Positions 28,554 through 30,148 of a DNA stretch of 44,065 nucleotides are shown here, in pieces. The first letter of the stretch is position 1. Every line of letters begins with the position of its first letter. A program made the position numbers and the translations under genes. Source of the DNA: a virus (Duplodnaviria > Heunggongvirae > Uroviricota > Caudoviricetes); the IMG/VR virus record IMGVR_UViG_2778261088_000003; one strand, 5' to 3'. Below the pieces are notes generated by a model. It did no database searches. It was given only the letters and a program-made list of their open reading frames with translations, and was not told the DNA's origin.

Positions 28554-28573
28554 GAGTCATCCCTTGTATTTTA

Positions 28574-28598
28574 AAGCTCCTTCGGGAGCTTTTTTATT
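28574..28598 (+). terminator. rho-independent terminator of the head/tail operon
   Basis: AAGCTCC-TTCG-GGAGCTT followed by TTTTT. Confidence 0.8.
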
Positions 28599-28669
28599 TG
28601 GAGATGAAAGGGTGCATTGAGGATACCTGACACACTAAGAGTGGCGGAGATCTCTCCCCGCCAGGTCTC

Positions 28670-28825
28670 TTACCTTTCAGATTCGTAGGCTGTGAAGACA
28701 GTGACCTCCGTCTGGCCGGTTCGGATTCGTACCTCGCAGAGGTCTTTCCTCGTTACCAGTGCCGTCACAATGACGGTTAAACAGATGACGATCAGAGCGA
28801 TTAACATCGCTTTTTGCTGCTTCAT
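28670..28825 (-). CDS. hok: Hok/Gef-family type I toxin (51 aa)
   Basis: MKQQKAMLIALIVICLTVIVTALVTRKDLCEVRIRTGQTEVTVFTAYESER, near-identical to my recollection of E. coli HokC/Gef; AAGGAG Shine-Dalgarno. Confidence 0.9.
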   Translation of the reverse strand: MKQQKAMLIALIVICLTVIVTALVTRKDLCEVRIRTGQTEVTVFTAYESER

Positions 28826-28883
28826 AGCCTGCTTCTCCTTGACCTTTTGGTCGGTAAGAGGCTAATCTACGTATGCTAAGCAT
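28677..28883 (-). CDS. mok: mok-like overlapping leader ORF
   Basis: 68-codon ORF starting upstream of hok and overlapping it in another frame, as in hok/mok/sok loci. Confidence 0.45.
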   Translation of the reverse strand: MLSIRRLASYRPKGQGEAGYEAAKSDVNRSDRHLFNRHCDGTGNEERPLRGTNPNRPDGGHCLHSLRI

Positions 28884-29006
28884 AGATATGGCCTCAGATT
28901 AATGTTAAGCGTCTTGCAGGACGCGTAATGTTATCTGGGGCTTTCTTCTATCTGCTTTTCGGGTAATGCCTGAAGCAGATAGCCTCAAGCACCCGCAACG
29001 ATTGTA

Positions 29007-29252
29007 TCAATGTCTGGCTTTTTTTCTATAGAAATCACCTGGAAGGGTGAATATCCACATCAGAAGAAATGTTGCAGCAAACATGATCCCTAATGGCCAG
29101 ACCGCGCCAAAGAAAATCCATACTAAGATCTCCTCTGCTCGTTCTTTGCGGTCGATATCGACAAGCATTTTTCGGCTGATCATGTATACACAGAAGCCAA
29201 TACAAACATATCCTGCAAAAGCGATCGCTAACTGTAAAAAATCAGATTGCAT
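29007..29252 (-). CDS. small two-helix membrane protein (81 aa)
   Basis: ATG 29252 with GAGG upstream; two hydrophobic helices. Confidence 0.45.
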   Translation of the reverse strand: MQSDFLQLAIAFAGYVCIGFCVYMISRKMLVDIDRKERAEEILVWIFFGAVWPLGIMFAATFLLMWIFTLPGDFYRKKARH

Positions 29253-29302
29253 CTCCGACCTCAAACTGAAAACGCCAGGTGACTCCAGATTAGAGCAATC
29301 TA

Positions 29303-30148
29303 TCACCCTCTGAATCCTGCCGGTATACCCCATTGTTCGTTATCTTTATTTTTGGCTAAAACCGCATTAAGAGCTTCGTTTACCGTCATGCAATGCGGCA
29401 GATTATCGAAGTTTGATACCCCGCCAATATCAGGAGAACGCTTGTTCTTCAGGTAAGCATATTTCCGCGCTGCCGCCTCTACCTTCTGCTTGAACTCATG
29501 TTTTTGAGCGCGTTTTTTGGATAACCGCAGATTGTCAGCCTTTGCTTTTGCCTCAGCGATCCATGAAGTCAATTTTTTGAGTCTGGTCGTTCCGGCACCG
29601 CCGGAAACTGATCTTTTTGTTTTTTTAACTTGTGACTTCTTATTCTTTATTGCCACGTCATCCTGACAGGGGGAGGGGGTATCATTTTGACATGGGGGTG
29701 TGGATAAAAAATTAAATAAAGCCAATGTCTTAGCGAGAACAGCTTTAACCTTGGTTGCCGCTGAAGAGATCTTTAATTTGCTTTCAATCAGCGCATTTTT
29801 GGCTTGTTGTGCGAAGGCCAAAAAGGATGGTGTAAACCGGTACAGGTTAGCGCGACGTTCACGGTGATCGCCGATAACAATCTCTACAGACAGAATTCCT
29901 TTGTTTACAGCTTCACGGAATGCACGAACGACGGTTGATTGGCTATAACCAGTTTCTGCCGCGATCAGGCGGTGAGGCTTGTGAATGAAGTATTCACTGG
30001 TTGTTGCCGCTAGATTTGCACATTGCGACAGGATATGCCCGGCGCTACGGGATAGACCGGAGTGTGTTACAAAGCAGGCCAATTCATAGCCAGAAAAAGT
30101 AAAATCGCTCATCGTTATACAGCTCAGGAAAGTGACTTTAGCCAGCAT
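29303..30148 (-). CDS. repL: lytic replication protein RepL-like (281 aa)
   Basis: Second gene of the operator-controlled kilA operon; length and position match P1 RepL as I recall it; contains a helix-turn-helix (STVVRAFREAVNKGIL). Confidence 0.6.
   Translation of the reverse strand: MLAKVTFLSCITMSDFTFSGYELACFVTHSGLSRSAGHILSQCANLAATTSEYFIHKPHRLIAAETGYSQSTVVRAFREAVNKGILSVEIVIGDHRERRANLYRFTPSFLAFAQQAKNALIESKLKISSAATKVKAVLAKTLALFNFLSTPPCQNDTPSPCQDDVAIKNKKSQVKKTKRSVSGGAGTTRLKKLTSWIAEAKAKADNLRLSKKRAQKHEFKQKVEAAARKYAYLKNKRSPDIGGVSNFDNLPHCMTVNEALNAVLAKNKDNEQWGIPAGFRG

What the first reader, a model, noticed from the sequence alone, without database searches (positions are those of the whole stretch)
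28600..29000. hok/mok type I toxin locus inserted between the tail-operon terminator and the lytic replicon
A 51-aa Hok/Gef-family toxin ORF, missed by the ORF track because of its size, sits with an overlapping mok-like frame. The sok antisense RNA should be encoded on the plus strand around 28850-28940 but I could not place its promoter or terminator with confidence. A post-segregational killing module fits the plasmid lifestyle; as a membrane-depolarising toxin it could also act in abortive infection.
Basis: partly seen in the sequence, partly recalled or inferred. Interest (0 to 1): 0.5.

Follow-up and report, generated by a model that had tools for sequence, protein, structure and literature searches.

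The report
Complete hok/mok/sok toxin–antitoxin cassette
This is an ordinary, apparently intact hok/mok/sok "killer peptide plus antisense RNA" module sitting in a known swap-site of a P1-like phage-plasmid, already labelled hokD in hundreds of public records, so it is real but not new.

Summary
A 51-aa Hok/Gef toxin ORF (28670-28825, minus strand; Pfam 78.7 bits against a cut-off of 22) overlaps a 68-codon mok frame (28677-28883). Every regulatory element of the R1 paradigm can be placed by alignment. These are the hok promoter, the 5' tac and 3' fbi elements (paired in 99.3% of cells over 69 homologues, with compensatory changes), ucb, and the mok-SD target hairpin. On the plus strand lies sok: promoter TTGACC-18 nt-TAATCT at 28839-28868, RNA about 28873-28951.

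The locus is not a simple insertion. A 693-bp segment (28596-29288) replaces P1's 1.8-kb pmgF-rlfB-rlfA block, which is the known "variable region 5". Only 28610-29006 is the hok module, 87-91% identical to lambdoid-prophage hok loci such as hokW-sokW and Rac.

The junction is common. It occurs in about 214 PLSDB plasmids and in 230 of 5,426 complete E. coli genomes, annotated hokD or MokW.

The most likely function is post-segregational killing of cells that lose the plasmid prophage, alongside phd/doc. Induction-coupled lysis help (shown for hokW) and abortive infection are possible additional roles. Interest is low.

The parts
29001..29028 (-). hok promoter: -35 TAGAAA (29028-29023), 16-nt spacer, extended -10 TGaTACAAT (29009-29001). 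The TGA is also the stop codon of the upstream 81-aa ORF.
   Evidence: Promoter scan. The -10 box aligns with TAGAAT (Rac) and TATGAT (R1 type). Homology to lambdoid copies starts at 29006, so the -35 box comes from the local context.
28566..28994 (-). Predicted full-length hok mRNA. The +1 is G28994 (GGGUGCUUGAGG...). The 3' end is inferred to lie just past the inverted bplB terminator.
   Evidence: Position 1 of the Rfam leader model falls at 28994. The 5' end is conserved in all 69 homologues. Fold: -164.6 kcal/mol, z = -9.2. The 3' end is an inference.
28983..28994 (-). tac element, the 5' end of the mRNA. It pairs with fbi in the full-length RNA or with ucb in the processed RNA.
   Evidence: MFE. 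tac-fbi helix 99.3% paired with a UA<->CG switch against the R1 type. tac-ucb helix 99.6% paired.
28937..28944 (-). ucb element (AAAGCCCC). It pairs with the mok SD region in the full-length fold and with tac in the alternative fold.
   Evidence: The first hairpin of the Rfam consensus.
28858..28895 (-). Target hairpin. It holds the mok SD GAGG (28895-28892), the mok ATG (28883-28881) and a hypervariable loop (28869-28880) complementary to the Sok 5' tail.
   Evidence: -12.6 kcal/mol, z = -3.1. The outer stem is invariant. Loop entropy is 0.83 bit against 0.19 overall, with 17 variants.
28677..28883 (-). mok reading frame: 68 codons, +1 frame relative to hok, stop TGA at 28679-28677.
   Evidence: The ATG aligns with the R1 mok ATG. 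The out-of-frame architecture is shared by 13 copies (P1 lineage plus Rac), whereas 50 lambdoid copies have it in frame.
28670..28825 (-). hok toxin gene: 51 aa, SD AAGGAG, stop TAA.
   Evidence: Pfam HOK_GEF 78.7 bits. NCBIfam Hok subfamily below cut-off, 49.5 against 73. 47/51 identical to HokW and to Rac Hok. 42% identical to R1 Hok.
28643..28662 (-). GC-rich 3'-UTR hairpin upstream of fbi. It is the likely stop point for 3' exonucleolytic trimming.
   Evidence: MFE. Helix 19 has 6 of 9 pairs with compensatory changes. The role is inferred from the R1 model.
28610..28622 (-). fbi element (CCUCAAUGCACCC), complementary to the 5' tac. Its last base is also the last base of homology to other hok cassettes.
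28573..28592 (.). P1-backbone bplB terminator hairpin. It is strong on the plus strand and weak (UUU only) on the minus strand. It sits where lambdoid hok copies carry their own terminator.
   Evidence: plus-strand terminator. Present in the P1 reference. Rac has CCCGCTTCGGCGGGTTTTTT after fbi. The minus-strand hairpin is -11 kcal/mol.
28839..28868 (+). sok promoter: -35 TTGACC (28839-28844, overlapping the hok SD on the other strand), 18-nt spacer, -10 TAATCT (28863-28868).
   Evidence: Aligns with R1 Psok TTGCGC/TATCCT and with hokW-type TTGCCT/TAACCT. Not found by the consensus scan.
28873..28951 (+). Sok antisense RNA, about 72-79 nt: single-stranded 5' tail, a 23-bp interrupted hairpin (28890-28942), then CUUUCUUCU.
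   Evidence: Coordinates transferred from the annotated sokW of 933W and from R1 Sok. Fold -32.9 kcal/mol, z = -5.7.
28596..29288 (.). 693-bp segment that replaces the 1,826-bp pmgF-rlfB-rlfA block of phage P1.
   Evidence: BLAST breakpoints at 28595/28596 and 29288/29289 against NC_005856.
29007..29252 (-). 81-aa predicted membrane protein of unknown function (108 aa from the upstream ATG at 29333), between repL and the hok promoter.
   Evidence: PHROG 3772, unknown function, E 6e-54. No significant Pfam or PADLOC family. The SJ46 homologue shares the C-terminal half.
29289..29299 (-). Retained core (ATTGCTCTAAT) of the C1 operator Op55/Orlf, immediately downstream of repL. The right breakpoint lies inside the 17-bp operator.
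   Evidence: P1 annotation. Junction alignment. One of 3 perfect cores in the window; 6 hits with at most 1 mismatch against 1.0 expected.

Best explanation
This is a complete and probably functional hok/mok/sok type I toxin-antitoxin module of the prophage hokW/hokD clade. It was recombined as a discrete 397-bp unit (28610-29006) into the variable slot between bplB and repL of a P1-like phage-plasmid.

Mechanism, inferred from the R1 paradigm and from hokW-sokW. A constitutive promoter makes a stable hok mRNA of about 430 nt. Its 5' tac element is locked to the 3' fbi element, and its mok Shine-Dalgarno sequence is sequestered by ucb, so the RNA is neither translated nor bound by Sok. Slow 3' trimming removes fbi. 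The 5' end then refolds into the tac-ucb stem and exposes a target hairpin that carries the mok start. While the plasmid is present, the short-lived Sok RNA is made from its own promoter on the plus strand. Sok pairs through its 5' tail with that hairpin loop, blocks mok translation and hence the coupled hok translation, and the duplex is degraded. When the plasmid is lost or transcription stops, Sok decays first. Mok and Hok are then translated, and Hok depolarises the inner membrane and kills the cell.

On a low-copy plasmid prophage the most likely pay-off is post-segregational killing, as a second addiction module next to phd/doc.

What is shown here: the sequence elements, their conservation and their pairing. 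What is inferred: expression, RNA half-lives, killing and plasmid stabilisation.
For: Toxin family membership: Pfam HOK_GEF 78.7 against a cut-off of 22 and PHROG 251.

Leader: covariance model 114.9 bits against a gathering score of 59. The same model matches the hok-sense strand in the R1-type locus and in 933W.

Element-by-element alignment to a database-verified R1-type hok/sok sequence and to the annotated hokW/mokW/sokW.

Folding: the full-length MFE closes the 5' end on the 3' fbi, z = -9.2. The isolated 5' 58 nt folds as the tac-ucb stem at -25.2 kcal/mol, and in the truncated RNA that conformer lies 3.8 kcal/mol above the MFE.

Pair counts over 69 distinct homologues: 93.3% of cells paired against 36-43% for slid controls; 24 pairs with changes on both sides against 10.7 in shuffles (0 of 500 shuffles reach this). 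P1-lineage-specific compensatory changes occur at columns 21/57, 207/225 and 371/380.

Integrity and selection: all 69 hok ORFs are intact. Column entropy is 0.06 in the CDS against 0.27 in the leader.

Prevalence: the junction is conserved at 99% or more in about 214 plasmids and is present in 230 of 5,426 complete E. coli genomes.

Co-residence: doc lies on the same replicon in at least 4 hok-type plasmids.

Experiment on the closest relative: hokW-sokW is toxic, and Sok neutralises the toxicity from its own promoter (PMC8621323).
Against: Nothing here measures transcripts, killing or stabilisation.

The cassette lacks the dedicated terminator that lambdoid copies carry after fbi. It relies on the inverted bplB terminator, which on this strand is followed by only three U residues. 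The 3' end, and therefore the kinetics of fbi release, are uncertain.

The MFE of the truncated RNA gives a local 5' hairpin rather than the tac-ucb stem.

The tac-ucb and SD-dcb helices are invariant, so they carry no covariation evidence.

The Hok protein scores below the curated NCBIfam cut-offs (49.5 against 73).

P1-like elements already carry phd/doc, so an additional stabilising benefit is not guaranteed.
Confidence: 0.82

Rival explanations
1. Induction-coupled lysis helper. As shown for hokW-sokW in prophage Sp5, Sok would disappear when the prophage is induced, and Hok would permeabilise the inner membrane ahead of holin and endolysin, increasing or advancing phage release. In the P1-like context, derepressed transcription from the C1-controlled kilA-repL operon would run through orf81 into the cassette. 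That transcription is co-directional with hok and head-on against Psok, which would give a physical route for silencing sok.
For: The closest characterised relative (88% nt identity; Hok 47/51 identical) halves Sp5 yield when deleted, and its Sok vanishes on RecA-dependent induction (PMC8621323). The cassette lies 309 bp downstream of repL on the same strand, with only a weak 5-bp terminator-like hairpin between them. A C1 operator core is retained right after repL.
Against: No transcript data. The 2-fold effect in Sp5 is modest. The window's mok is out of frame, unlike the in-frame mokW of hokW-type copies, so regulation may differ. P1 has its own holins, antiholin and endolysin. About 220 other P1-like plasmids do without hok at this site.
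Confidence: 0.3
2. Abortive-infection or anti-phage cargo. Host transcription shut-off by an infecting lytic phage would deplete Sok and release Hok, killing the cell before the invader completes its cycle and so protecting the clonal lysogen population.
For: R1 hok/sok on a high-copy plasmid reduced T4 plating by 42% and plaque size by about 85% (reported in PMC8621323, citing its reference 27). In canonical P1 the same slot holds rlfA/rlfB, which match the PADLOC candidate defence system PDC-M04 at 1e-95 and 1e-51. The site therefore behaves like a defence or accessory hotspot, known as 'variable region 5' (PMC9603915).
Against: Hok has no PADLOC model hit. The T4 effect was weak and seen at high copy number, whereas P1-like plasmids are low copy. 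The hotspot argument is guilt by association: other occupants include Lom-like and unknown proteins.
Confidence: 0.2
3. A selfish or decaying hitch-hiker with no phenotype. The cassette would be transcriptionally mis-terminated or permanently repressed and merely carried along, as are many chromosomal hok loci.
For: Loss of the native terminator. hok loci are often inactivated: two R1-type plasmid loci picked at random had IS150 or ISKpn28 in the leader. About 125 P1-like plasmids retain only the leader and sok, without hok.
Against: Every element is intact, and lineage-specific compensatory substitutions preserve helices. All 12 distinct P1-lineage copies keep hok and mok open. The CDS is under much stronger constraint than the UTRs.
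Confidence: 0.1

Closest known systems
hokW-mokW-sokW of Stx2 prophage Sp5 / phage 933W (AF125520; Takada et al. 2021, PMC8621323)
   Same: 87-88% nucleotide identity over exactly 28610-28997. Hok is 47/51 identical. The leader architecture is the same, with a long Sok hairpin carrying the ~16-nt insert relative to R1, and the fbi is the same. RF01794 scores 113.5 bits there against 114.9 here.
   Different: mokW is in frame with hokW, giving a 70-aa N-terminally extended Hok. Here mok is a 68-codon +1 frame, as in R1. The Sok-tail/target-loop sequence differs (CTGAACACATGT against CTTAGCATACGT). Psok is TTGCCT-17 nt-TAACCT against TTGACC-18 nt-TAATCT. The genomic context is an integrated lambdoid prophage rather than a plasmid prophage.
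hok/mok of a Rac-type prophage (MN652886, E. coli 442/2)
   Same: The best non-P1 match: 91% over 28610-29006. It has the same out-of-frame 68-codon mok, and its target loop differs by one base.
   Different: Rac carries its own rho-independent terminator immediately after fbi, and the flanking genes are different.
hok/sok (parB) of plasmid R1, the paradigm type I post-segregational killing system
   Same: The elements occur in the same order: Phok, tac, ucb, mok SD and ATG, Psok on the opposite strand overlapping the hok SD, hok, 3' hairpin, fbi. RF01794 matches both. The tac-fbi pairing is kept by a compensatory UA<->CG change.
   Different: Only 42% Hok identity. The leader differs by indels, with a longer first hairpin and a shorter Sok hairpin in R1. 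R1 has its own terminator and is borne on a conjugative plasmid.
E. coli K-12 hokD (relF) of the Qin prophage, the name PGAP gives this gene
   Same: The toxin protein is nearly identical, and RefSeq annotates the window's gene as HokD.
   Different: From my own knowledge (Pedersen & Gerdes 1999, not re-checked here), K-12 hokD lacks the mok, sok and upstream regulatory elements. The window's locus has all of them, so 'HokD' is a protein-similarity label, not a statement about locus architecture.

Membership tests
hok/sok type I toxin-antitoxin family (Hok/Gef) | A ~50-aa Hok/Gef membrane toxin ORF | tested here: met
   Pfam PF01848 78.7 bits against a cut-off of 22, covering profile positions 1-42 of 42. 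PHROG 251, 110.7 bits. 42% identity to R1 Hok with the conserved TRK-LCE-R core. The NCBIfam Hok subfamily match is below its cut-off, 49.5 against 73.
hok/sok type I toxin-antitoxin family (Hok/Gef) | An overlapping upstream mok frame with its own SD, through which hok is translated | tested here: met
   A 68-codon frame, 28883-28677, overlaps all but the last 7 nt of hok. Its ATG and GAGG align with the R1 mok start. The ATG is conserved in 68 of 69 homologues. Translational coupling itself cannot be tested here.
hok/sok type I toxin-antitoxin family (Hok/Gef) | A cis-encoded antisense Sok RNA gene, with its own promoter and terminator, opposite the mok translation-initiation region | tested here: met
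   Psok boxes are positionally homologous to R1 and to the functionally tested sokW (PMC8621323). The RNA has a 23-bp hairpin and a U-rich tail, z = -5.7. It covers the mok ATG and SD. Only the sequence is shown; expression is not.
hok/sok type I toxin-antitoxin family (Hok/Gef) | Long-range 5' tac - 3' fbi pairing that closes the full-length mRNA | tested here: met
   Predicted in the MFE. 12 pairs, 99.3% of cells paired in 69 sequences; one pair switches UA<->CG between clades, and the variable base is the bulge.
hok/sok type I toxin-antitoxin family (Hok/Gef) | An alternative tac-ucb stem and a target hairpin in the processed mRNA (refolding switch) | tested here: inconclusive
   The complementarity is present and invariant, 99.6% and 100% paired. 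It matches the Rfam consensus structure. The 5' 58 nt folds that way on its own. However, the MFE of the truncated RNA prefers a local hairpin by 3.8 kcal/mol, and the invariant helices give no covariation.
hok/sok type I toxin-antitoxin family (Hok/Gef) | Stable toxin mRNA with a labile antisense RNA, and killing of plasmid-free or transcription-arrested cells | not testable with these tools
   This needs RNA half-life measurements, rifampicin killing and plasmid-stabilisation assays.
Rfam RF01794 'sok antitoxin (CssrC)' | A match above the gathering score on the strand of the RNA the family is named for | tested here: not met
   The score is far above threshold (114.9 against 59), but the match is on the hok-sense strand and ends at the hok AUG. 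The same holds in the R1-type locus, and in 933W it lies opposite the annotated sokW. The model therefore describes the hok mRNA leader. Sok is the reverse complement of roughly its positions 45-115.
P1 variable region 5 (rlfA-rlfB-pmgF slot) | Located between bplB and repL, with breakpoints in backbone sequence shared by P1-like elements | tested here: met
   Breakpoints at 28595/28596 and 29288/29289 against NC_005856. Alternative cargo occupies the same left breakpoint in RCS47 and SJ46. The region is listed as highly variable in PMC9603915.

The most novel reading that the evidence does not exclude
The cassette may be wired to the phage's lysis-lysogeny switch. The core of the C1 operator Op55 survives just downstream of repL. 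No strong terminator separates the C1-repressed kilA-repL-orf81 transcription unit from the hok promoter. On induction, read-through would supply extra hok transcripts and would collide head-on with Psok. That would silence the antitoxin, so Hok would fire as an induction-coupled early membrane lesion. This would supply the missing mechanism for the loss of Sok seen with hokW.

Two further possibilities follow from the comparative data. The hypervariable 12-nt target loop may give each of the 2-9 co-resident hok/sok cassettes in a cell a private antitoxin. The roughly 125 P1-like plasmids that keep only the leader and sok may use that sok as an anti-addiction device against hok-bearing rivals.
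Probability: 0.15. Interest if true: 0.55.

Novelty: already known. Interest (0 to 1): 0.22.

Why it matters
It matters mainly for annotation and for bookkeeping on phage-plasmid biology.

- The commonest allele of P1 "variable region 5" is a full type I addiction module. In database records only the toxin is annotated, under the borrowed name hokD; sok, mok and the mRNA elements are not.
- P1-like phage-plasmids are vehicles for ESBL and other resistance genes. A second addiction system beside phd/doc would help to explain their persistence.
- The slot exchanges hok/sok with a candidate defence system (rlfA/rlfB = PDC-M04). This fits the view that it is an accessory or defence hotspot.

If the induction-coupling idea held, the locus would offer a tractable model of how prophage induction triggers a type I toxin.

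Tried and rejected
- The consensus promoter/terminator scan found Phok and the bplB terminator but missed Psok and the Sok terminator. I placed both by homology instead.
- Folding the 3'-truncated mRNA did not give the tac-ucb stem as the MFE. I report that stem only as an alternative conformer 3.8 kcal/mol above the MFE.
- The first two R1-type plasmid loci I fetched (L006, L007) had IS elements in the hok leader and could not be used. I then verified my recalled R1 hok mRNA sequence by BLAST (100% identity to NC_004998.1) and used that locus.
- Literature searches for hok at the P1 rlfA position found no paper describing it. Two candidate papers mention hok only on other plasmids.
- PADLOC has no model that matches Hok or orf81. 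Pfam gives nothing significant for mok, orf81, RepL or BplB.
- phd/doc is not inside this window. I showed co-residence by cross-matching accession lists instead.
- I rejected the idea of a simple insertion, because 1.8 kb of P1 sequence is missing at the site.
- I rejected taking the Rfam hit as direct evidence for Sok, because it lies on the hok strand.
- I did not pursue YUNR U-turn motifs. UUAG in the window's loop aligns with CUAG in R1, but several relatives lack such a motif at that position.

Full report
**What the window is.** The window comes from a P1-like phage-plasmid. It carries C4 antisense RNA and its a1/b1 targets, three tRNA genes, icd-ant-kilA-repL on the minus strand, and the tail genes 23-22-21-pmgG-bplB on the plus strand. 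Both gene sets are collinear with phage P1. The 1-kb stretch around the finding is 99-100% identical to hundreds of E. coli, Klebsiella and Salmonella plasmids and to several "Punavirus P1" records.

**Checking the observation.** The 51-aa ORF at 28670-28825 on the minus strand is real. It is a strong Hok/Gef family member: Pfam PF01848 at 78.7 bits against a cut-off of 22, and PHROG 251 "MokW-like host killing" at 110.7 bits. It is 47/51 identical to HokW and to a Rac-prophage Hok and 42% identical to R1 Hok. The overlapping frame at 28677-28883 has 68 codons. It begins at an ATG that aligns exactly with the mok ATG of the R1-type locus and is preceded by GAGG. Rfam family RF01794 ("sok") matches 28820-28994 at 114.9 bits against a gathering score of 59.

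**The Rfam hit is on the hok strand.** That match lies on the minus strand, and its last consensus positions are the hok AUG. I ran the same model on a verified R1-type locus and on phage 933W, where sokW is annotated. It matched the hok-sense strand in R1 and the strand opposite the annotated sokW in 933W. RF01794 is therefore in effect a model of the hok mRNA leader in its tac-ucb conformation. It supports the locus but does not locate Sok.

**Placing the elements.** My recalled R1 hok mRNA sequence proved 100% identical to database plasmids such as NC_004998.1. I aligned that locus, two divergent plasmid relatives, Rac, 933W and 80 IMG/VR phage loci with the window. The coordinates below are on the minus strand unless stated.

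- *hok promoter:* -35 TAGAAA at 29028-29023, a 16-nt spacer, then TGaTACAAT at 29009-29001. The TGA is also the stop codon of the upstream 81-aa ORF. The +1 is G28994.
- *tac:* 28994-28983.
- *ucb:* 28944-28937.
- *Target hairpin:* 28895-28858, containing the mok SD and ATG.
- *hok SD:* AAGGAG.
- *hok coding sequence:* 28825-28670.
- *3' hairpin:* 28662-28643, GC-rich.
- *fbi:* 28622-28610.
- *Psok (plus strand):* -35 TTGACC at 28839-28844, an 18-nt spacer, then -10 TAATCT at 28863-28868. It is column-for-column homologous to R1 Psok (TTGCGC-17 nt-TATCCT).
- *Sok RNA (plus strand):* starts at 28873 by the R1 alignment or 28875 by the 933W annotation. It forms a 23-bp hairpin (28890-28942) and ends in CUUUCUUCU at about 28951.

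The consensus scan missed Psok because TAATCT matches only 3 of 6 consensus positions. In hokW-sokW, mutations at the sokW -10 box abolished protection, and sokW supplied in trans restored it (PMC8621323).

**RNA structure evidence.** The full-length RNA (28994 to 28565) folds at -164.6 kcal/mol with z = -9.2. Its first 12 nt pair with fbi, and ucb pairs with the mok SD. I counted pairs on alignment A1, which holds 69 distinct sequences.

- The MFE structure is paired in 93.3% of cells, against 36-43% when partners are slid.
- 24 pairs change on both sides, against 10.7 in shuffles (0 of 500 shuffles reach this).
- The tac-fbi helix is 99.3% paired, with a UA<->CG switch between this clade and R1.
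- The P1 lineage has its own compensatory doubles at columns 21/57, 207/225 (both changes synonymous in hok) and 371/380.
- The alternative leader fold (tac-ucb stem and target hairpin) is 91% paired. Its key helices are invariant, so they show no covariation.

The 5' 58 nt folds as tac-ucb on its own (-25.2 kcal/mol). In the 3'-truncated RNA that conformer sits 3.8 kcal/mol above an MFE with a local 5' hairpin. The refolding switch is therefore compatible with the sequence but is not demonstrated thermodynamically.

**Integrity and selection.** All 69 hok ORFs are intact. Column entropy is 0.06 bit in the CDS, 0.27 in the leader and 0.34 in the 3' UTR.

**Mosaic structure.** Homology to P1 (NC_005856) ends at 28595, which is the T-run of the bplB terminator and therefore backbone sequence. 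It resumes at 29289. The intervening 693 bp replace the 1,826-bp pmgF-rlfB-rlfA block, which a survey of 77 P1-like elements listed as "variable region 5" (PMC9603915). Within the 693 bp, only 28610-29006 is homologous to other hok loci. The same two end points recur in about 50 distinct lambdoid loci. The unit runs from the -10 box to the last base of fbi.

Lambdoid copies such as Rac carry their own terminator (CCCGCTTCGGCGGGTTTTTT) right after fbi. Here that terminator is missing, and the inverted bplB terminator lies 17 nt downstream. Read on the minus strand, its hairpin (-11 kcal/mol) is followed by only UUU. This is the one feature that might compromise normal 3'-end formation.

The right breakpoint falls inside the 17-bp C1 operator Op55/Orlf and preserves its ATTGCTCTAAT core.

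**Prevalence.** The table gives counts of records where a single match covers at least 80% of the query.

| Junction type or measure | Count | Source |
|---|---|---|
| hok-type junction, PLSDB plasmids | 214 | |
| RCS47/SJ46-type junction, PLSDB plasmids | 125 | |
| Canonical P1 type (rlfA/rlfB/pmgF), PLSDB plasmids | 98 | |
| Whole 693-bp segment, complete E. coli genomes | 230 of 5,426 | |
| At least one related hok cassette, complete E. coli genomes | 4,739 of 5,426 | |

Genomes with a related cassette have a median of 2 places and up to 9, mostly chromosomal. PGAP annotates the gene as "HokD" and one phage record as "MokW"; sok is not annotated. I found no paper in the searchable library that describes hok at this P1 position.

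**Function.** The mechanism I commit to is the R1 one: a folded, stable hok mRNA; a labile Sok that blocks mok and hence hok translation; activation after Sok decay; and membrane depolarisation by Hok. Its role would be post-segregational killing for a low-copy plasmid prophage. doc is present on at least four of the same plasmids, and phd/doc is reported as core to P1-like elements (PMC9603915). hok/sok would therefore be a second addiction module.

Two non-exclusive alternatives deserve weight. First, hokW-sokW, the closest characterised relative, loses Sok on RecA-dependent induction, produces HokW about an hour before endolysin, and doubles phage yield (PMC8621323). Second, R1 hok/sok partly excludes T4 (cited in PMC8621323), and the slot holds a candidate defence system in P1: rlfA and rlfB match PADLOC PDC-M04A and PDC-M04B at 1e-95 and 1e-51. 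A decaying-remnant reading is unlikely, given the intact elements and the lineage-specific compensatory changes.

**Differences from hokW.** The window's mok is a +1-frame 68-codon ORF, as in R1 and Rac. In 50 lambdoid copies, including hokW, a 1-nt deletion puts "mok" in frame with hok.

**Verdict.** The finding is correct, and the locus is a textbook system in a known variable site that is already annotated in public records. Its interest is low. The by-products are listed under things noticed in passing.

Noticed in passing
window 28869-28880 (-), alignment A1 columns 137-148: The 12 nt after the mok ATG form the loop of the target hairpin and are the complement of Sok's 5' tail. They are 4.3 times more variable than the cassette average (0.83 against 0.19 bit), with 17 variants among 66 copies. 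The variant CTTAGCATACGT is private to the 12 P1-lineage copies. This looks like a specificity patch that insulates co-resident hok/sok loci; 87% of complete E. coli genomes carry at least one related cassette.
   Followed up: partly
L091 (phage RCS47) 1918-2091 and L092 (phage SJ46) 1918-2213; homologous to window 28863-29122: RCS47- and SJ46-type P1-like elements keep the hok promoter, a full-length hok leader (RF01794 68.5 bits), the mok ATG and a sok gene with a plausible promoter (TTGCTC-18 nt-TAATCT). The hok coding sequence is gone and is replaced by a convergent 198-210-aa ORF of unknown function. About 125 PLSDB plasmids have this junction. It may be an orphan antitoxin with an anti-addiction role, or simply a scar.
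   Followed up: partly
L002 (phage P1 NC_005856) 2000-3168; the block missing from the window between 28595 and 29289: P1 rlfA (DUF3800) and rlfB, long annotated as 'replication-linked functions', match the PADLOC candidate anti-phage system PDC-M04A/B at E 1e-95 and 1e-51. The bplB-repL slot therefore swaps a candidate defence system for a toxin-antitoxin module.
   Followed up: no
window 28820-28994 (-); L008 150-326 (+); L003 1713-1887 (-): Rfam RF01794 'sok antitoxin (CssrC)' matches the hok-sense strand in every locus tested and ends at the hok AUG. It models the hok mRNA leader, not the Sok RNA. Annotation pipelines that use it will place 'sok' on the wrong strand.
   Followed up: yes
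window 29289-29305 (-): The right recombination breakpoint lies inside the C1 operator Op55/Orlf. The core ATTGCTCTAAT is kept and the distal 6 bp are replaced (CTGGAG against TATAAC in P1). It is one of three perfect cores in the window. C1 bound here could act as a roadblock between repL and orf81/hok.
   Followed up: partly
window 29007-29252 (-), or 29007-29333 from the upstream ATG: An 81-aa (or 108-aa) two-TM-like protein of unknown function (PHROG 3772) lies between repL and hok. Its TGA stop codon doubles as the TG of the extended -10 of the hok promoter. Its C-terminal half is shared with a different N-terminus in SJ46.
   Followed up: partly
window 28573-28592: The bplB terminator sits where lambdoid hok cassettes carry their own terminator and may act as a bidirectional terminator shared by the converging tail operon and hok. 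On the hok strand it has only a UUU tail, so hok transcripts may run antisense into bplB.
   Followed up: partly
alignment A1, column 176 (window 28834): A single-base indel decides the mok architecture. The P1 lineage and Rac (GGTCAAGG) have mok out of frame with hok, as in R1. 50 lambdoid copies including hokW (GG-CAAGG) have it in frame, encoding a 70-aa N-terminally extended Hok.
   Followed up: partly
L006 (NZ_CP141206.1) and L007 (NZ_CP022920.1): Two R1-type hok loci picked from the plasmid hit list both had an IS element (IS150, ISKpn28) inserted in the hok leader, removing the promoter and tac. Leader disruption seems common on plasmids as well as on chromosomes.
   Followed up: no
window about 18640-19524 (+); L005 10241-11125: The plasmid replication initiator is annotated as 'RepB family', and MOB-suite types the 100%-identical plasmid as IncHI1B. 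It is probably the p0111-type rather than the IncY-type P1 replicon described in PMC9603915. I did not check this.
   Followed up: no
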